Shown: piece after piece, positions 19,038 through 36,915 of the stretch
Position numbering within the stretch: the first letter of the stretch is position 1
Layout of the letters: the number at the start of each line of letters is the position of its first letter
Virus genome (UHGV): UHGV-0071814
Source of the DNA: a virus
DNA length: 36,915 bases
Direction: 5' to 3' (one strand)
Notes under the pieces: model-generated
Databases searched by the model: none
The model's input: the letters and a program-made list of their open reading frames with translations, nothing else
Told to the model about the DNA's origin: nothing
Translations under genes and position numbers: made by a program

Positions 19038-19113
19038 TGGTGCTGGTTAACGGACTTGAACCGCTACCCATTCGCTTACAAGGCGACTGCTCTACCATTG
19101 GAGCTAAACCAGC
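19038..19113 (-). tRNA. tRNA, probably Thr (anticodon UGU)
   Basis: Manual fold: 7-bp acceptor stem, D arm GCTC/GAGC, anticodon loop CUUGUAA, T arm with GGTTCAAGTCC, 3' CCA. Confidence 0.6.
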
Positions 19114-19118
19114 ATATT

Positions 19119-19193
19119 TGGCGGGACAGCGTGGACTCGAACCACGATAAGAAGGTTAACAGCCTTCCGTAATGACCTTTATACGACTGACCC
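19119..19193 (-). tRNA. tRNA, probably Asn (anticodon GUU); one T-T mismatch in acceptor stem
   Basis: Manual fold: anticodon stem GAAGG/CCTTC, loop CUGUUAA, T arm GGTTCGAGTCC, 3' CCA. Confidence 0.55.
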
Positions 19194-24230: not shown

Positions 24231-25682
24231 TCAGAATCCTCCTTTCTTCTTGGATTGCGGTTCCTCGCGTTCACGGCGGCGCATTTCAGCAGACTGTTGG
24301 TCTGTGTCATAAATAGCGCCATTTGCCTGAATGCAATACACCGTGCCGGTATTGCCATGACGATTGAGACGAAGGATTAGTTCGGTTTCACCAGGTGGAA
24401 CACTGTCATCAAAAGCGCCTTCACGATGGATCCCAACCCAATAATCGCAATCCTGTTCAATCTGCCCTGTATCTCGTGAGTCACTTGGTAATGGGCGTTT
24501 ATTGGTTCGGCTTTCCAGTGCGCGGTTAAGCTGTGTCAGAAGCACAACAACGCAATCAAGCTCTTTGGCAAGGTTCTTCAGTCCTTTGGTGATCATGCCG
24601 TAAGCAAGGTCGTTGCGATCGGCCTTCTCAGCAGTCATTAGTGTCAGGTAATCGACCAGAATCATGCCAACACATCCTTTTTCTCGCTTGATTCGACGGC
24701 TTTCGCTGACGATTTGAGCCAGAGATAATCCCGGCGTGTCGTCGATGTAAAGCATGTCGATTTCACTCAAGCGATTGGCTGTTTCGATCGCCCTGTTGAA
24801 GTCACCATCGTAATCACCCTGATAGCCGTCATCGGCGTCATTTGTCGCCGGAAGGTAAAAAATATTCGGGTTAACACCAGACTTCTGCCCTACCAGTTTT
24901 TCCAGTATCTGATCACCTGGCATTTCAAGGCTGAACATCAGAGCGGGCTTTTTCTCATGCACTGCGCAATTGATTGCCATCTGGCTGTATAGCGTCGTTT
25001 TCCCCATCTTAGGGCGAGCGCCAATGACAAACAGAGAGCCTTTCACCAGACCTTTCGGTGACAGCATCCTGTCCAGCGATGGGATCCCTGTGCTCATTCC
25101 TCGCTGTTCGCCTGACGGGTCAAATCGCTTCTCAAGGTCGCTAACCCAGTCTTCCATGACCTCACCAAATGAGCGAAGGCCGCGACGCGATCCGGTTTTT
25201 GCATGGTCTGTCAGTTGCGTGAAAATCGCCTGAATAGCTTCGTACTTCTGCGTTGCAGTCATTCCGTTGCGGGAATAGAGCAATTCCGTCGCTTCAGTCA
25301 TGCGGTTGATGGCGTAGCGTTCCATTGCGGTTTCACGAACCTGCATTGCATAGGCAACGATGTTTGCTGCGCTTGGCGTGTTCTTTGCGATCTCAGCGAT
25401 ATAAGCAAAACCGCCAACAGACGCCGTTAACGATTTACGCTCCAATTCATCGAAAAGCGTCAGGCCATCTACTGGCTTTTGCTCCCGGTGCATTCTGGTT
25501 ATTTCTTCGAAAAGGATTTTGTGTGGCCGGCTGTAAAATGAGTCAGGCTTCAGCATCGCCAGAACTTTCTGGACGCGCTCACTGCTGTCATCATCCAGAA
25601 GCAATCCACCAATCACCGCCTGCTCTGCCTCGATGCTATGGGGCGGCGCATAAAAATTATCGGTCATCGTGTTCACCCTCAC
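24231..25682 (-). CDS. Replicative DNA helicase, DnaB family (P22 gene 12-like)
   Basis: 483 aa; Walker A GARPKMGKTT; DnaB-like N-terminal domain. Confidence 0.9.
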   Translation of the reverse strand: MRVNTMTDNFYAPPHSIEAEQAVIGGLLLDDDSSERVQKVLAMLKPDSFYSRPHKILFEEITRMHREQKPVDGLTLFDELERKSLTASVGGFAYIAEIAKNTPSAANIVAYAMQVRETAMERYAINRMTEATELLYSRNGMTATQKYEAIQAIFTQLTDHAKTGSRRGLRSFGEVMEDWVSDLEKRFDPSGEQRGMSTGIPSLDRMLSPKGLVKGSLFVIGARPKMGKTTLYSQMAINCAVHEKKPALMFSLEMPGDQILEKLVGQKSGVNPNIFYLPATNDADDGYQGDYDGDFNRAIETANRLSEIDMLYIDDTPGLSLAQIVSESRRIKREKGCVGMILVDYLTLMTAEKADRNDLAYGMITKGLKNLAKELDCVVVLLTQLNRALESRTNKRPLPSDSRDTGQIEQDCDYWVGIHREGAFDDSVPPGETELILRLNRHGNTGTVYCIQANGAIYDTDQQSAEMRRREREEPQSKKKGGF

Positions 25683-26547
25683 GAACTTTCAGGTAGGTAT
25701 TATCGTTAAGCAGGAAATCAAATCCCTTTTTGTGCCAGACGGTTCCGCGTTGATGGTTTGGGCGTTCTTCGAACATCCATCGGCAATTTTCGCCTACGTA
25801 GCTCAAATAATTTCTCCAGTCCTGCATCGTGAACCCATGCCCGTCAAGCTGGCGGGTTATCACTCCGGCTTTGCGCCAGAACGTTCGGATCTGGTTTTTA
25901 CGCTTGTCATTCAGTGCGCGGATTCTTGGCGCTTCAGGAAGGATTTCGTGGTAAGCATCGACAACATCCTGACAGCTAACGGAAGGTTTTTTCTTGTCAG
26001 ACTTTTTGTCTGCTGTGGCACTCTCTAATACGTCAGTATTAGAGATATTATTTATATTATTGTTTATGGACAACCATTGGACAACCGTTGGACAATCTCC
26101 GCTGAGAGTCGCGCCATTACTGGTGTTTGCGTTGGACAACCGTTGGACAACCGTTGGACAATTTTTTGCCTGAAAATCGTCATATTTAACGATTGTAAAC
26201 AGGCTAAATTTCTTCCCCATCGAGCAAATATTAAGCATCCCTTTCGACTCAAAAGTCCGTAATAAGCTCCGAACTTTGTTGTCGGGGATGAATGTTTCTC
26301 TGACCAGCGACGGGCGTCCAGTTATCATCTGACCGCGATCAACAGTTATCGGACCGATATCCGTATTGACGACAGTAGATTCGTGATTAGCCTTGAGGAT
26401 TAAGTGAAGCCAAAGATGTACTGCCTGAGAGTCCTTATAGAGCCTGCTGTCCATAAACTGGCGGTGTATAGAGACATACCCCATACTGGATGCCTCCTGA
26501 TGTTGTACAGGGTTATGCCTGTAATCAGCTAACTTAACGACGCCCAT
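25657..26547 (-). CDS. Replication initiation protein (O-like; P22 gene 18-like); alternative start at ATG 26484
   Basis: Iteron array lies inside the gene; both candidate ATGs have AGGAG-type RBS. Confidence 0.7.
   Translation of the reverse strand: MGVVKLADYRHNPVQHQEASSMGYVSIHRQFMDSRLYKDSQAVHLWLHLILKANHESTVVNTDIGPITVDRGQMITGRPSLVRETFIPDNKVRSLLRTFESKGMLNICSMGKKFSLFTIVKYDDFQAKNCPTVVQRLSNANTSNGATLSGDCPTVVQWLSINNNINNISNTDVLESATADKKSDKKKPSVSCQDVVDAYHEILPEAPRIRALNDKRKNQIRTFWRKAGVITRQLDGHGFTMQDWRNYLSYVGENCRWMFEERPNHQRGTVWHKKGFDFLLNDNTYLKVREGEHDDR
26068..26163. repeat. Replication origin iterons: two clusters of three 11-bp-phased repeats (TTGGACAACCG/TTGGACAAT) flanked by AT-rich tracts
   Basis: GGACAACC/GGACAAT at 26068, 26079, 26090, 26134, 26145, 26156; AT-rich 26046-26066 and 26161-26215. 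Confidence 0.75.
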
Positions 26548-26695
26548 GTTTCACTCCTGCTTTGGCTAGTCTGTAAACACCAACAAGGCGCTCTGCGAAC
26601 GCCCTGTTATTTGCTGCGGCTACCACTGATCCCTCAGGTGAATCAGGGTGTCGAATCTCTTCTTTTTCCTGGTATTTCTTACGACGTTTTGTCAT
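26534..26695 (-). CDS. Small basic hypothetical protein between cII and O
   Basis: 53-aa ORF MTKRRKKYQEKEEIRHPDSPEG... with AGGAG 6 nt upstream; below ORF-track size cutoff. Confidence 0.3.
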   Translation of the reverse strand: MTKRRKKYQEKEEIRHPDSPEGSVVAAANNRAFAERLVGVYRLAKAGVKHGRR

Positions 26696-26729
26696 AATTA
26701 CTCCTGTGGATTGATCCAGTCTTTCTACA

Positions 26730-27008
26730 TCAGGCCTCGAAGAATTCGCCGTTCTTCGGGGCTTTTTCTTTTGTCAGCATTCTTGCTACTTTCTTAGCCA
26801 GTTTCGCCAACTCCTCGTCTTCAACACCCCATTCAAGAACAGCAAGAAGCATTCCCATTTTGGGGATGAAGCTGTCTTTCCATCGCGAAATTTGCGATTC
26901 ATTAATCCCTAACGCGTCGGCAACCTTTCGCTGACCACGTACAGCAATTCGATTCAGGATGTTGCTTGTAATTGCATTCGCTTTCTTGCGAGTACTTGTA
27001 AGTTGCAT
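26730..27008 (-). CDS. cII: cII-type transcriptional activator
   Basis: ...GINESQISRWKDSFIPKMGMLLAVLEWGV... matches lambda cII/P22 c1 core as recalled. Confidence 0.8.
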   Translation of the reverse strand: MQLTSTRKKANAITSNILNRIAVRGQRKVADALGINESQISRWKDSFIPKMGMLLAVLEWGVEDEELAKLAKKVARMLTKEKAPKNGEFFEA

Positions 27009-28151: not shown

Positions 28152-28520
28152 ATGGTTGGAACCGCTATAGCAAGCTTTTTGGGGATGTTGGCAATCTCAA
28201 CAATTTACGGCTTAGCGCATGCTTTTATTGCGAAATCTCTATCAGAAAAAATAAGCCAGGCTTGGGCGCATAGATCTGCTCGTTTCATGATTCTGGTGAT
28301 CATAGCAATACAAGGGATATCTGCATTTATCCTCTATGGATCAAGCTTATACCTGTTGTATCAAGGCGCGACATTTACGCCTTACACCAGTGATTACGGA
28401 ACTCTATACGATGGTAGTGAAGACATCTCTATGGCTTGGATCGTCTTTGGTTTATCTATGGCCGTGTCTGTTGTAGCAGACATCATTAAGGTAATTCTCG
28501 TCTTAACCTTCGCTGACTAA
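28152..28520 (+). CDS. Small multi-pass membrane protein directly downstream of cI (rex-position cargo)
   Basis: ATG at 28152 with AAGGGG upstream; about 122 aa with three or four hydrophobic segments; ORF-track start 28131 is TTG. Confidence 0.55.
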   Translation: MVGTAIASFLGMLAISTIYGLAHAFIAKSLSEKISQAWAHRSARFMILVIIAIQGISAFILYGSSLYLLYQGATFTPYTSDYGTLYDGSEDISMAWIVFGLSMAVSVVADIIKVILVLTFAD

Positions 28521-35390: not shown

Positions 35391-35810
35391 ATGAGGCCTG
35401 TACATTTCTCAAGATATCCAGACCTACCGCAATCATGTCAATCCAATAAATGGAGATTCCAGGTGGAAGAAGAAATCTTCACTCGTGAAGAAGCTGCGTC
35501 GTATCTGAAGGTAGACAAAGGCACTATCACACAGTGGATACGAAGTGGACGACTTCAGGCCGCAAAGATAAATCCAGATAAACCTAAAAGTCCATATCGC
35601 ATTTGCAAGTCAGACTGCATTGTGGCGCTTAAGTCTGTGAGACACAATAGCGCGGTGAATGCGGTTGATGTGCAGGAGGTTAAAGCATGTCAATCAAACT
35701 ACGCGGTGGCACGTGGCACTGCGATTTCGTCGCGCCAGATGGATCAAGAGTTAGACGCTCTCTTGAAACATCGGACAAAAGGCAAGCGCAAGAACTTCAC
35801 GATCGTCTAA
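35391..35810 (+). CDS. xis: Excisionase-like DNA-binding protein; start uncertain (ATG 35391 or GTG 35461); overlaps int by about 124 bp
   Basis: HTH-like segment FTREEAASYLKVDKGTITQWIRSGRLQAAKI; immediately upstream of int. Confidence 0.55.
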   Translation: MRPVHFSRYPDLPQSCQSNKWRFQVEEEIFTREEAASYLKVDKGTITQWIRSGRLQAAKINPDKPKSPYRICKSDCIVALKSVRHNSAVNAVDVQEVKACQSNYAVARGTAISSRQMDQELDALLKHRTKGKRKNFTIV

Positions 35811-36847
35811 AAGCAGAAGCGTGGAGAGTAAAAAATCTCGGGGAATCACCGAAAAAGCTATTCAAGGAAGCCTGCATACGGTGGCTGCGTGAGAAATCGG
35901 ATAAGAAGTCCATTGATGATGACAAGAGCATTATATCGTTCTGGATGTTGCACTTCAGAGAAACCATTCTCTCAGACATAACAACAGAAAAAATAATGGA
36001 GGCGGTAGACGGGATGGAAAACCGCCGCCATCGCCTGAACTGGGAAATGAGCCGGGACAGGTGTTTGCGGCTTGGCAAGCCAGTGCCGGGGGATAAACCA
36101 ACGTTGGAAAGCAAAGGAACGAAGACGCGGCATCTGGCAATACTTCGCGCTATTCTCAATATGGCTGTTGAATGGGGATGGCTTGACAGGGCGCCCAAAA
36201 TATCAACACCACGCGTTAAGAATGGACGAATCAGATGGCTTACAGAGGAGGAATCGAAGCGCCTGTTTGCAGAAATTGCTCCTCATTTCTTCCCTGTGGT
36301 CATGTTTGCAATCACGACAGGCCTTCGCCGTTCCAACGTTACAGACCTTGAGTGGTCACAGGTCGATCTGGATAAGAAAATGGCATGGATGCACCCTGAT
36401 GAAACAAAAGCTGGCAATGCGATCGGAGTTCCTCTTAACGAAACCGCATGCCAGATATTAAGAAAACAGCAGGGTCTCCATAAGAGATGGGTGTTTGTCC
36501 ACACCAAACCTGCCTACCGAAGCGACGGAACAAAAACAGCAGCGGTAAGGAAGATGAGAACCGACAGCAACAAGGCATGGAAGGGAGCGTTAAAGCGGGC
36601 AGGCATTAGCAACTTCCGCTTCCATGACCTGAGGCATACCTGGGCAAGCTGGCTGATTCAGTCCGGTGTCTCTCTTCTTGCACTTAAAGAGATGGGAGGA
36701 TGGGAAACTCTCGAAATGGTTCAAAGATACGCCCACCTTTCAGCCGGGCATCTCACCGAGCACGCGAGCAAAATCGATGCGATTATAAGTCGCAATGACA
36801 CAAATACGGCACAAGAGGAGAACGTAGTTTACTTAAATGTGAGATAA
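35687..36847 (+). CDS. int: Tyrosine-type site-specific integrase
   Basis: 386 aa; catalytic motifs ...FRFHDLRHTWAS... and ...VQRYAHL...; AGGAGG RBS; adjacent to tRNA. Confidence 0.9.
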   Translation: MSIKLRGGTWHCDFVAPDGSRVRRSLETSDKRQAQELHDRLKAEAWRVKNLGESPKKLFKEACIRWLREKSDKKSIDDDKSIISFWMLHFRETILSDITTEKIMEAVDGMENRRHRLNWEMSRDRCLRLGKPVPGDKPTLESKGTKTRHLAILRAILNMAVEWGWLDRAPKISTPRVKNGRIRWLTEEESKRLFAEIAPHFFPVVMFAITTGLRRSNVTDLEWSQVDLDKKMAWMHPDETKAGNAIGVPLNETACQILRKQQGLHKRWVFVHTKPAYRSDGTKTAAVRKMRTDSNKAWKGALKRAGISNFRFHDLRHTWASWLIQSGVSLLALKEMGGWETLEMVQRYAHLSAGHLTEHASKIDAIISRNDTNTAQEENVVYLNVR

Positions 36848-36861
36848 CTTATTGATTTTAA

Positions 36862-36915
36862 TGGTGCCGATAATAGGAGTCGAACCTACGACCTTCGCAT
36901 TACGAATGCGCTGCT
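36862..36915 (-). tRNA. thrW: tRNA-Thr (anticodon CGU), 3' portion only; prophage attachment site
   Basis: Minus strand ...AGCGCATTCGTAATGCGAAGGTCGTAGGTTCGACTCCTATTATCGGCACCA; anticodon loop and T arm through CCA match E. coli thrW as recalled; truncated by window end. Confidence 0.8.

What the first reader, a model, noticed from the sequence alone, without database searches (positions are those of the whole stretch)
26046..26215. Origin of replication: two triplets of 11-bp-phased iterons inside the O-like gene
Six copies of GGACAACC/GGACAAT at helical-turn spacing in two clusters about 37 bp apart, flanked by AT-rich stretches, fit a lambda-style ori embedded in the initiator gene. The array also produces spurious ORFs on both strands.
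Basis: seen in the sequence. Interest (0 to 1): 0.35.

Follow-up and report, generated by a model that had tools for sequence, protein, structure and literature searches.

The report
Phage replication origin inside initiator gene
This is the predicted replication origin of a P22/Sf6-like prophage, lying inside the gene for the initiator protein that should bind it; it has six 11-bp binding repeats, an easily melted AT-rich stretch and a small hairpin, and it is real but ordinary because the same sequence is already annotated as a putative origin in phages Sf6, HK620 and L.

Summary
Six 11-bp direct repeats (gene strand TTGTCCAACGG) form two triplets at window 26130-26162 and 26064-26096. All six sit in one 11-bp register, with the triplets 66 bp apart start to start. 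They lie inside a 296-aa O-like initiator gene (25657-26547, minus strand), upstream of a phage DnaB-type helicase gene.

The gene is 99% identical to Sf6 gene 43, whose GenBank record marks exactly these bases as a putative origin. The phage L paper describes the same repeat.

In 51 related loci the layout is kept: three repeats, a 33-bp spacer, three repeats, an AT-rich tract, then a hairpin. The repeat sequence changes together with the predicted recognition helix of the N-terminal winged-helix domain. The C-terminal domain instead tracks the partner gene, either a DnaB-like helicase or a lambda-P-type loader.

It is maintained by many compensatory changes and is mirrored in ori-lambda.

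The origin differs from lambda in two ways. Its iterons are short direct repeats, as in plasmids, and the initiator's N-terminal domain is not in the lambda O family. Verdict: already known, low interest.

The parts
25657..26547 (-). O-like replication initiator gene (296 aa) that contains the origin
   Evidence: ORF. phrog_345 'replication initiation O-like' E = 1.5e-84 over residues 1-296. 99.2% DNA identity to Sf6 gene 43.
26164..26547 (-). Coding region for the N-terminal winged-helix domain (aa 1-128), the predicted iteron-binding domain; predicted recognition helix aa 89-101
   Evidence: AlphaFold2 with a 51-sequence alignment gives pLDDT 81.6, helices 40-52, 78-85 and 89-101, and a beta wing at 105-119. 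Nearly all of the strongest Foldseek PDB matches are winged-helix DNA binders, but weakly (best E = 7.8e-3). Relatives give weak Pfam hits to Phage_rep_org_N, GntR, IclR and MarR. Residues 93-94 co-vary with the iteron core.
26130..26162 (-). Iteron triplet 1 (promoter-proximal): ATTGTCCAACG GTTGTCCAACG GTTGTCCAACG
   Evidence: Covered by the Sf6 putative rep_origin annotation.
26097..26129 (-). 33-bp spacer between the triplets, equal to three empty 11-bp slots; less conserved than the iterons
   Evidence: A free search over 0-6 spacer slots chose 3 in all 40 assessable enterobacterial-type loci (L091-L127, L129, L130, L137; L128 is partly masked by Ns). Spacer identity to relatives is 70-94% against 83-98% for the iterons.
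26064..26096 (-). Iteron triplet 2: ATTGTCCAACG GTTGTCCAATG GTTGTCCATAA
26046..26066 (-). AT-rich tract, the predicted DNA-unwinding element; A-rich on the gene strand and translated as Asn/Ile codons (INNNINN)
   Evidence: GC minimum of the gene is 0.225. Gene nt 484-508 are 88% A+T with 14 A and 8 T. Present at the same place in all relatives. [quoted passage not shown]
26022..26045 (.). Perfect inverted repeat TCTCTAATAC-TGAC-GTATTAGAGA (10-bp stem, 4-nt loop) next to the AT-rich tract; not part of the original finding
   Evidence: As single-stranded DNA, free energy is -7.5 kcal/mol with z = -5.5 on either strand. Across 30 distinct sequences from 51 loci, 97% of cells are paired, all 10 pairs show changes on both sides, and there are no one-sided changes. 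Ori-lambda has a counterpart with 12-nt arms and a 4-nt loop.
25657..25980 (-). Coding region for the C-terminal domain (about aa 190-296), the predicted helicase-recruiting domain
   Evidence: phrog_24933 matches residues 170-296. In the AlphaFold2 model the folded segment is 190-280 and the linker 122-189 is disordered. This domain co-occurs with a DnaB-like helicase gene in 44 of 44 loci. The 6 loci with a lambda-O-type C-terminal domain all carry a lambda-P-type loader instead.
24231..25682 (-). Phage DnaB-family replicative helicase gene (P22 gp12-like), overlapping the 3' end of the initiator gene
   Evidence: Pfam DnaB (3.4e-31) and DnaB_C (2.8e-60). NCBIfam TIGR03600 phage_DnaB scores 583.7 bits, above the 498.65 cut-off.

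Best explanation
The element at 26022-26162 is the theta-replication origin of a P22/Sf6-like lambdoid prophage. It is embedded in the linker-coding part of its own initiator gene.

Proposed mechanism, inferred by analogy and from comparative evidence:
1. The O-like protein is made from the early-right (pR) transcript.
2. Its N-terminal winged-helix domain binds the six 11-bp direct repeats. The repeats are spaced one helical turn apart, so the bound domains line up roughly on one face of the DNA, head to tail, in two groups of three.
3. This nucleoprotein complex, together with negative supercoiling and probably transcription through the region, melts the adjacent 21-bp AT-rich tract.
4. The C-terminal domain recruits the phage's own DnaB-type helicase (next gene downstream) onto the opened DNA, bypassing the host DnaB/DnaC.
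5. The 10-bp inverted repeat at the far edge of the AT-rich tract is a conserved DNA-level part of the origin. Its role is unknown. My best guess is that it extrudes as a hairpin or cruciform that stabilises or delimits the opened region and helps helicase loading or priming.

Shown here: the anatomy, its conservation, the iteron/recognition-helix co-variation, the C-terminal-domain/partner co-occurrence and the hairpin covariation. Inferred: binding, melting, helicase loading and the hairpin's role.
For: Identity with annotated origins:
- 99.2% identity to Sf6 gene 43, whose putative rep_origin maps to window 26067-26162.
- Equivalent annotations exist in HK620, VT2-Sakai ('ori iteron 1/2') and phage L.
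[quoted passage not shown] It also cites genetic evidence that the L and P22 replication regions exchange only as a unit (PMC8022706).

The constraint is on DNA, not protein:
- An 11-bp period is not a multiple of 3, so each triplet is read in all three frames.
- Iterons are 83-98% identical to relatives, against 71-94% for the N-terminal coding DNA and 70-94% for the spacer; in each of the six comparisons the iterons are the more conserved.
- The array falls in a predicted disordered linker, residues 122-189, pLDDT 22-39.

Conserved layout:
- Three repeats, a 33-bp spacer, three repeats, an AT-rich tract and a hairpin are found in 51 loci, down to about 32% protein identity.
- Twelve different iteron cores occur, all containing CCA.

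Specificity coupling:
- Predicted recognition-helix residues 93-94 track the base 5' of CCA.
- [K/R]S goes with TGTCCA or AATCCA, KY goes with [G/A]TGCCA, and QY goes with TTACCA, GTACCA or TTCCCA.

Modularity:
- HK022, HK620, VT2-Sakai and others share 98% identity only over window 25657-26067. Homology breaks at the junction between the AT-rich tract and the iterons, and these phages carry a different N-terminal domain with different iterons (TTACCAGCA).
- Conversely, 6 loci combine this N-terminal domain and iteron layout with a lambda-O-type C-terminal domain and a lambda-P-type loader. All 44 loci with the window-type C-terminal domain carry a DnaB-like helicase.

Same three-part order as ori-lambda: iterons, then an AT-rich tract that is A-rich on the sense strand, then an inverted repeat with a 4-nt loop.

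Hairpin. The inner 9 pairs are paired in 270 of 270 cells, and 93 cells show changes on both sides against 33 +/- 3.5 in shuffles (0 of 500 shuffles reach the observed value).
Against: - No experiment on this origin type (binding, footprint, origin mapping or plasmid replication) was found in four literature searches. All database annotations say 'putative'.
- The initiator's N-terminal domain is not a detectable lambda O relative. It has no PF04492 hit and BLASTP gives E = 4.7. The mechanistic analogy therefore rests on layout, not on homology.
- Structural matches are weak and generic (Foldseek best E = 7.8e-3, TM about 0.45).
- The iteron/helix and domain/partner associations come from linked DNA in related phages, so shared ancestry partly confounds them.
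- The iterons are direct repeats without conserved dyad symmetry. Binding stoichiometry therefore cannot be copied from lambda.
- Nothing here shows what the hairpin does.
Confidence: 0.85

Rival explanations
1. The repeats bind the initiator, but for autoregulation, titration or copy control ('handcuffing') or for incompatibility, and replication starts somewhere else in the genome.
For: No origin mapping exists for this family. In iteron plasmids extra iterons do serve control functions (review PMC5043065). Stx-phage origins contain iterons that are bound only weakly (PMC7466680).
Against: The iterons are always followed directly by the AT-rich tract and the hairpin, in the order seen in the experimentally defined ori-lambda. 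The phage L and P22 replication regions substitute for each other only as whole units (Hilliker 1981, cited in PMC8022706), which places the origin within this small region. No other iteron array was found in the window: of the 9 pattern hits, the 3 outside the array are isolated.
Confidence: 0.07
2. The array is only a duplicated peptide in the initiator's linker (CPTVVQRLSN...CPTVVQWLSI), with no function as DNA.
For: The two triplets do encode a repeated 11-residue peptide. The 66-bp unit varies in copy number in nature, giving 274-, 296- and 318-aa proteins.
Against: Within each triplet the period is 11 bp, so the three copies are read in three different frames and encode no repeated amino acids. 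The peptide differs widely between lineages (VPADYQQITT, VPTECQQSAN, CPADVQPVS) while the 3+3 11-bp DNA layout is invariant. The region is predicted to be disordered. The iterons are more conserved than the flanking coding DNA.
Confidence: 0.03
3. This rival concerns the inverted repeat only. It acts at the RNA level, either as an intrinsic terminator for antisense (window + strand) transcription running toward the iterons or as an mRNA processing or stability hairpin. It would then not be part of the origin.
For: The simple scan lists it as terminator-like on the + strand: 10 pairs, 3 G-C pairs, tail TATTATTTAT. The phage L record carries automated 'terminator' features on that strand at the equivalent place. 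In lambda the palindrome is also followed by a T-rich run on the antisense strand.
Against: Among 300 pair cells from 30 distinct sequences there is not one one-sided change, so no G-U intermediates; G-U pairs occur only as UG in the outermost pair (3 cells). That pattern suits Watson-Crick DNA symmetry better than RNA. The stem is AT-rich and weak (-7.5 kcal/mol). The number of terminator-like sites in the region equals chance (2 found, 1.9 expected). No Rfam family matches here. The repeat always sits at a fixed distance from the AT-rich tract, whichever helicase system follows.
Confidence: 0.1
4. The repeats are a partition (centromere-like) site bound by a winged-helix protein, like TubR on tubC, rather than an origin.
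For: The best Foldseek hits for the N-terminal domain are TubR chains. From my own knowledge, TubR binds clustered roughly 12-bp direct repeats.
Against: The hits are weak (E = 7.8e-3, 11% identity) and the other leading hits are generic winged-helix proteins such as CodY, CRP and MarR. The protein carries a C-terminal domain that tracks a helicase or helicase loader. It occupies the O position of a lambdoid early operon. This phage type integrates (integrase at 35687-36847) and has no TubZ or ParA partner nearby.
Confidence: 0.02

Closest known systems
Putative origins of phages Sf6 (gene 43), L / ST64T / ST160 (gene 18), IME10, HK75, HK106 and mEp234
   Same: This is the same element. The gene is 99% identical to Sf6 and the HK/mEp coliphages and 84% identical to the Salmonella phages. 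It has the same TGTCCAACGG iterons, the same 3+3 layout, AT-rich tract and hairpin, and the same DnaB-like helicase partner. It is annotated or described as a putative origin.
   Different: Only point differences. For example, the fifth iteron here is GTTGTCCAATG, and Salmonella phages have GATGTCCAACG in several copies. The published annotations cover the iterons only, not the inverted repeat.
Origins of HK022, HK620, VT2-Sakai and Stx1 phage (sister specificity type)
   Same: The C-terminal half, AT-rich tract and hairpin are identical (98% over window 25657-26067), as is the helicase. The 3 + 33 bp + 3 layout at 11-bp spacing is the same.
   Different: The N-terminal domain differs (about 48% identity) and so do the iterons ([G/T]TACCAGCA). 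The predicted recognition helix carries QY instead of RS.
Ori-lambda within gene O
   Same: The origin lies inside the initiator gene, between the DNA-binding and partner-binding domains. The order along the gene is iterons, then an AT-rich tract (A-rich on the sense strand), then an inverted repeat with a 4-nt loop. It sits in the pR operon after cII. The iteron number varies among relatives (PMC5043065; PMC7466680).
   Different: Lambda has four 18-19-bp iterons that are inverted repeats and bind O dimers. Here there are six 11-bp direct repeats in two triplets. The N-terminal domain is not PF04492 and shows no BLASTP similarity. The partner is a phage DnaB-type helicase, not the P loader plus host DnaB. 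The AT-rich tract is about half as long.
Ori of P22 (gene 18)
   Same: Same genomic position, a DnaB-type gp12 helicase partner and an origin inside gene 18 (PMC8022706).
   Different: According to that paper, P22 gene 18 has four roughly 20-bp repeats and its protein is only 25% identical to the L-type protein. It is therefore a different specificity class.
Iteron-plasmid origins (P1, RK2, R6K, pPS10 type)
   Same: Direct repeats in phase with the DNA helix, next to an AT-rich unwinding element, and bound by winged-helix initiators (review PMC5043065). Weak Foldseek hits to a plasmid initiator, chains 4pt7 and 4pql, which from my own knowledge is staphylococcal plasmid RepA.
   Different: Plasmid iterons are about 17-22 bp (my own knowledge), twice this length. 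No DnaA box lies near the array. The origin is inside the initiator's own coding sequence. Only one winged-helix domain is predicted.
RSF1010 oriV (recalled from memory, not tested here)
   Same: Iterons, then an AT-rich region, then an inverted repeat. There the repeat forms the hairpins (ssiA and ssiB) used for priming after a plasmid-encoded helicase opens the DNA. This is a useful model for what the hairpin here might do.
   Different: The RSF1010 repeat is much larger, and its proteins RepA, RepB' and RepC are unrelated. No phage primase is evident next to this origin.

Membership tests
Sf6 / L / HK620-type lambdoid origin (phrog_345 initiator with 3+3 11-bp iterons) | Initiator belongs to the phrog_345 'replication initiation O-like' family | tested here: met
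   E = 1.5e-84 over residues 1-296 against profile positions 1-292 of 297.
Sf6 / L / HK620-type lambdoid origin (phrog_345 initiator with 3+3 11-bp iterons) | Two triplets of 11-bp direct repeats separated by 33 bp, in the middle of the gene | tested here: met
   Spacing 11, 11, 44, 11, 11. The same spacing occurs in 51 relatives.
Sf6 / L / HK620-type lambdoid origin (phrog_345 initiator with 3+3 11-bp iterons) | AT-rich tract and a 9-10-bp inverted repeat with loop T[G/A]A[C/A] immediately downstream | tested here: met
Sf6 / L / HK620-type lambdoid origin (phrog_345 initiator with 3+3 11-bp iterons) | Near-identity to a sequence annotated as rep_origin in a reference phage | tested here: met
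   Sf6 AF547987 rep_origin 28385-28480 maps to window 26067-26162, with 99.2% gene identity.
Ori-lambda type (lambda, 434, 21, 933W) | Origin lies inside the initiator gene, in the order iterons, AT-rich tract, palindrome | tested here: met
   Window. Lambda.
Ori-lambda type (lambda, 434, 21, 933W) | Iterons are 18-19-bp inverted repeats, each binding an O dimer | tested here: not met
   The units are 11-bp direct repeats. The weak internal dyad GTTG-TC-CAAC of the window's unit is absent from the sister types (GATGTCCAAC, ATTACCAGCA). The lambda description comes from PMC5043065.
Ori-lambda type (lambda, 434, 21, 933W) | Initiator N-terminal domain belongs to Pfam Phage_rep_O (PF04492) | tested here: not met
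   The window protein has no PF04492 hit, whereas lambda O hits at 5.7e-36. BLASTP against lambda O gives E = 4.7.
Ori-lambda type (lambda, 434, 21, 933W) | C-terminal domain works with a lambda-P-type loader that brings in host DnaB | tested here: not met
   The downstream gene is a phage DnaB-family helicase (TIGR03600). There is no lambda P or lambda O C-terminal similarity here, although 6 related loci do have both.
Ori-lambda type (lambda, 434, 21, 933W) | Initiator binds the iterons and the fragment supports replication | not testable with these tools
   This needs EMSA or footprinting and a plasmid replication assay. No published test was found.
Iteron-plasmid origins | Direct repeats in helical phase next to an AT-rich unwinding element | tested here: met
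   11-bp register across all six copies, with the AT-rich tract adjacent.
Iteron-plasmid origins | Iterons of about 17-22 bp, a Rep protein with two winged-helix domains, and DnaA boxes in the origin | tested here: not met
   The unit is 11 bp and one winged-helix domain is predicted. TTWTNCACA with up to 1 mismatch is no more frequent than chance, and the only hit in the array is the weak TTATGGACA at 26064-26072.

The most novel reading that the evidence does not exclude
The small perfect inverted repeat at the far edge of the AT-rich tract (26022-26045) may be an essential, structure-specific part of lambdoid origins. It has a conserved loop, T[G/A]A[C/A], arms that change freely through Watson-Crick compensatory changes, and a counterpart in ori-lambda. 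It could act as a DNA hairpin or cruciform that sets the boundary of the opened region or serves as a helicase-loading or priming signal. If so, it could also be the kind of origin-associated palindrome that Lamassu/DdmABC-type defences sense (PMC12663957). It is not covered by the rep_origin features of Sf6, HK620 or L, or by the VT2-Sakai iteron features. To my knowledge it has never been tested in this family.
Probability: 0.3. Interest if true: 0.45.

Novelty: already known. Interest (0 to 1): 0.2.

Why it matters
In practice this gives a secure annotation. The prophage carries the Sf6/L-type replication module, and its origin can be placed at 26022-26162. About 2.7% of complete E. coli genomes (145 of 5426) carry this iteron type, and 6.8% (371) carry at least the AT-rich/hairpin module.

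Conceptually the family is a clean natural experiment in origin-recognition specificity. One fixed layout carries at least a dozen iteron sequences that change together with two or three residues of a predicted recognition helix. The same recognition module is plugged into two different helicase-delivery systems.

That makes it a convenient system for working out a winged-helix/iteron recognition code. It could also be used to ask what the origin-flanking hairpin does. None of this is surprising to a lambdoid-phage specialist.

Tried and rejected
- **PDB by sequence.** The single protein gave no hit at E <= 1. The A3 profile gave only spurious low-complexity hits.
- **hhalign of A3 against lambda O.** It gave 97% probability. 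I reject this as evidence for the window protein, because A3 contains Erwinia phage Eho59, whose C-terminal half is a true lambda-O-type domain, and the alignment is driven by that half.
- **Full-length AlphaFold2 model with a shallow alignment.** It was poor (pLDDT 51). I used it only for domain boundaries and the disordered linker, and did not use it for fold search.
- **DnaA boxes at the origin.** None beyond chance. I did not pursue the loose resemblance of TTGTCCA to the DnaA box TTATCCA.
- **Internal dyad symmetry of the 11-bp unit.** GTTG-TC-CAAC and the junction palindrome CAAC-G-GTTG are present in the window's version but not in the L, HK620, Klebsiella or CobraSix versions, so they are not a defining property.
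- **Rfam.** Nothing at the origin.
- **Viral-contig scan with the single protein.** It returned only 98-100% identical copies, which are useless for covariation. Diversity had to come from tblastn on phage records and from the genome-contig scan with an alignment.
- **NCBIfam.** No model for the initiator. Pfam gave only a sub-threshold DUF7376 hit.
- **Literature.** Four searches found no binding or replication experiment for this origin type. The P22 genome paper (PMC94795) is not held.
Full report
**1. What is in the sequence**

Window 26064-26162 holds six copies of an 11-bp unit. On the + strand it reads TTGGACAACCG. On the gene (minus) strand it reads [A/G]TTGTCCAACG.

- Tandem Repeats Finder finds two period-11 arrays, at 26067-26095 and 26130-26161.
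- The repeat finder gives spacing 11, 11, 44, 11, 11. All six copies therefore share one 11-bp register, and the two triplets start 66 bp apart.
- Six of the nine window-wide matches to TTGGACAAYC (up to 1 mismatch) lie within this 98-bp stretch.
- The six slots share 9.2 of 11 positions on average. In Markov controls the value was 4.3 +/- 0.26.
- GC falls to 0.225 at 26020-26079 and to 0.25 at 26160-26199.
- Directly beyond the lower AT-rich tract lies a perfect 10-nt inverted repeat with a 4-nt loop (26022-26031 / 26036-26045).

**2. Context**

The array sits in the middle of a 296-aa ORF on the minus strand (25657-26547), covering aa 129-161.

- That ORF matches phrog_345 'replication initiation O-like' (E = 1.5e-84).
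- Upstream on the same strand are orf53, cII (Pfam Phage_CII) and cro. The cI-type repressor gene is divergent on the + strand.
- Downstream are a DnaB-family helicase (Pfam DnaB and DnaB_C; NCBIfam phage_DnaB above its cut-off) and ninB.
- The window as a whole is a P22/Sf6-like prophage, with an integrase next to a truncated tRNA at its right end.

**3. It is already annotated**

- The gene is 99.2-99.4% identical to those of Sf6, HK106, mEp234, IME10, HK75 and others, and about 84% identical to gene 18 of Salmonella phages ST160, SE1 and L.
- The Sf6 record (AF547987) carries 'rep_origin 28385-28480, putative; repeat region reminiscent of the phage lambda origin; similar to phage HK620'. 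This maps to window 26067-26162.
- HK620 has a two-part rep_origin. VT2-Sakai labels each triplet 'ori iteron'. Phage L has 'putative origin of replication'.
[quoted passage not shown] It contrasts this with the four roughly 20-bp repeats of lambda and P22 (PMC8022706).
- I found no experimental test for this origin type.

**4. Comparative anatomy**

I collected relatives from phage records by tblastn (loci L003-L006 and L087-L090). I collected more from one genome per species using a protein alignment (L091-L138).

- A search free to choose 0-6 empty slots between two triplets chose three (33 bp) in all 40 assessable enterobacterial-type loci (L128 is partly masked by Ns).
- The unit sequence differs by lineage: TGTCCAAC, TGTCCAGCC, [G/T]TACCAGCA, TTACCAACAG, GTGCCAACA, AATCCAA, AAGCCAA, TTCCCAG and others. 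All keep a CCA core.
- After the last unit come 12-28 bp of A-rich AT-rich DNA and then a 9-10-bp inverted repeat with loop TAAC, TGAC or TAAA.
- Three distant relatives from other phyla (L131, L134, L135) have six contiguous 11-bp repeats followed by AT-rich DNA, with no spacer and no hairpin.
- Ori-lambda read with the same tools has four iterons, about 43 bp of A-rich AT-rich DNA, then a repeat with 12-nt arms and a 4-nt loop. The order of parts is the same.

**5. The constraint is on DNA, and the array lies in a protein linker**

- An 11-bp unit is read in three frames within a triplet. Only the 33-bp triplet as a whole repeats at the peptide level (CPTVVQRLSN / CPTVVQWLSI).
- That peptide is quite different in other lineages, while the DNA layout is fixed.
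- Against relatives with the same iteron type, the iterons are 83-98% identical. The N-terminal coding DNA is 71-94% identical and the spacer 70-94%; in each of the six comparisons the iterons are the more conserved.
- AlphaFold2 on the full protein was poor overall. It still clearly separates a folded N-terminal part (about 23-121), a disordered stretch at 122-189 (pLDDT 22-39) and a folded C-terminal part (190-280).
- The whole origin (aa 129-176) therefore sits in the disordered stretch. The AT-rich tract is translated as INNNINN.

**6. Who binds the iterons**

- With a 51-sequence alignment, the N-terminal 128 residues fold confidently (pLDDT 81.6). The model is a winged helix-turn-helix with a predicted recognition helix at 89-101 and a beta wing at 105-119.
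- Nearly all of the strongest Foldseek matches in the PDB are winged-helix DNA binders (TubR, CodY, CRP/NtcA and MarR family). Two weak hits further down are chains 4pt7/4pql, titled 'initiator' and 'N-terminal domain of DNA binding protein' (staphylococcal plasmid RepA, from my own knowledge). All are weak.
- Relatives give weak Pfam hits to Phage_rep_org_N and several winged-helix families.
- Across 49 loci, the residues at positions 93-94 sort with the iteron core. [K/R]S goes with TGTCCA or AATCCA, KY goes with [G/A]TGCCA, and QY goes with TTACCA, GTACCA or TTCCCA. Shared ancestry confounds this, but it is what a recognition helix reading the bases 5' of CCA would produce.

**7. Natural domain swaps**

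- Megablast shows that HK022, HK620, VT2-Sakai, the Stx1 phage and CP-1639 match only window 25657-26067, at 98%.
- Homology ends exactly where the iterons begin. Upstream, these phages carry a different N-terminal domain and TTACCAGCA iterons. The same breakpoint appears in E. coli genomes.
- In the other direction, six loci (Eho59, L116, L128-L130, L137) join this N-terminal domain and iteron layout to a lambda-O-type C-terminal domain. All six are followed by a lambda-P-type loader.
- All 44 loci with the window-type C-terminal domain are followed by a DnaB-like helicase.
- The N-terminal domain and the iterons therefore form one module. The C-terminal domain and the helicase-delivery gene form another. 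This is the classic logic of lambdoid initiators.

**8. The hairpin**

- On 30 distinct 32-nt windows from 51 loci, the 10-pair stem is paired in 97% of cells. The inner nine pairs are paired in 270 of 270 cells.
- Every pair shows changes on both sides. There are 93 such cells, against 33 +/- 3.5 in shuffles (0 of 500 shuffles reach the observed value).
- Controls with the partner slid by 1-3 columns pair in only 28-45% of cells.
- There are no one-sided changes at all, so no G-U intermediates; the only G-U pairs are 3 UG cells in the outermost pair. This favours a DNA-level Watson-Crick dyad over an RNA hairpin.
- As single-stranded DNA it folds at -7.5 kcal/mol (z = -5.5) on either strand, similar to the lambda palindrome.
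- It also scores as a weak terminator-like site on the antisense strand, which I keep as a rival reading.
- Its role is not established by anything here.

**9. Copy-number variation**

- The protein database contains 318-aa and 274-aa versions of the initiator.
- At the DNA level these have three triplets (nine iterons) and one triplet respectively. They differ by exact 66-bp units.
- The nine-iteron form sits in an intact-looking cI-cro-cII-O-helicase context.
- The one-triplet form in Shigella flexneri 8401 sits in a prophage whose cI/cro region is replaced by an IS4 element. It is probably a decaying copy.

**10. Mechanism and comparison**

The best-supported model is a lambda-like initiation pathway with plasmid-like iterons.

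- Winged-helix domains bind one-turn-spaced direct repeats on one face of the DNA, in two groups of three.
- The adjacent AT-rich tract opens.
- The C-terminal domain brings in the phage's own DnaB-type helicase.

The review by Jha et al. notes that lambda iterons are inverted repeats binding dimers. It notes that plasmid iterons are direct repeats in helical phase binding monomers (PMC5043065). On that criterion this origin is on the plasmid side.

It is a member of the Sf6/L/HK620 origin type. It works like ori-lambda in outline. It fails the membership tests for ori-lambda on iteron structure, N-terminal domain family and helicase-delivery partner.

**11. Verdict**

The novelty rating is 'already known'. 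The conserved hairpin and the residue/base co-variation are modest additions worth a specialist's note. Interest is low (0.2).

Noticed in passing
window 26022-26045; same place in L001-L006, L087-L130, L137; lambda L139:563-590: A 9-10-bp perfect inverted repeat with a conserved 4-nt loop T[G/A]A[C/A] follows the AT-rich tract in every enterobacterial relative. Its arms differ through Watson-Crick-only compensatory changes. Ori-lambda has a counterpart with 12-nt arms and a 4-nt loop. It is not covered by the rep_origin features of Sf6, HK620 or L, or by the VT2-Sakai iteron features.
   Followed up: yes
L140, L141 (gene at 2001-2957); L142, L143 (gene at 2001-2825): Natural variants of the same gene carry three triplets (9 iterons, 318 aa) or a single triplet (3 iterons, 274 aa), differing by exact 66-bp units. 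The single-triplet form in Shigella flexneri 8401 lies in a prophage whose cI/cro region is replaced by an IS4 transposase gene.
   Followed up: partly
window 26067 (junction between the AT-rich tract and the iterons): This is a sharp mosaic breakpoint. HK022, HK620, VT2-Sakai, the Stx1 phage and CP-1639, plus many E. coli chromosomes, are 88-98% identical up to 26067 and unrelated beyond it. The origin itself is therefore a recombination boundary between specificity modules.
   Followed up: yes
L131 (Spongiibacteraceae MAG), L134 (Elusimicrobiales MAG), L135 (Bacteroidia MAG): Distant relatives of the N-terminal domain from other phyla have six contiguous 11-bp direct repeats (CAACAGATGAA, GTGAACAACCA, ACGACCGAACA) followed by AT-rich DNA. 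They have no 33-bp spacer and no hairpin. The 11-bp iteron period seems to be an old property of this domain family.
   Followed up: no
window 26693-26720 (-) and 26732-26764 (+): There is a perfect match to the 28-nt lambdoid pO/oop conserved sequence quoted in PMC3349717. On the opposite strand a strong terminator-like hairpin (14 pairs, tail TTTCTTTTGT) overlaps the 3' end of cII. Together these suggest an OOP-type antisense RNA.
   Followed up: partly
window 26534-26695 (-): A 53-aa ORF lies between cII and the initiator and overlaps the initiator's start. It is the counterpart of P22 orf48, HK97 gp53 and Sf6 gene 42. It has no NCBIfam hit and its function is unknown.
   Followed up: no
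window 19038-19113 and 19119-19193 (-): Two phage-borne tRNA genes, tRNA-Thr(TGT) and tRNA-Asn(GTT), lie in tandem in the late-regulation/lysis region.
   Followed up: no
window 35687-36847 (+) and 36865-36915 (-): A 386-aa ORF at the right end, which I presume to be the integrase, is followed by the 3' part of a tRNA gene cut off by the window edge. This is probably the prophage attachment site.
   Followed up: no
L092 (CACSKA010000001.1, labelled Chryseobacterium sp. 18061): A 799-kb contig labelled as a Bacteroidota species carries an 86%-identical copy of this enterobacterial initiator gene, with identical iterons and hairpin. The record may be mislabelled or contaminated.
   Followed up: no
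P0039 (292 aa) and window ORF 26064-26252 (-): One database protein reads through the array in the alternative frame (IVQRLSNGCPTQTPVMARLSAEIVQRLS) and then returns to frame. This is the same frame as the 62-aa 'spurious' ORF. The repeats keep more than one frame open, so small indels in the array need not truncate the protein.
   Followed up: no
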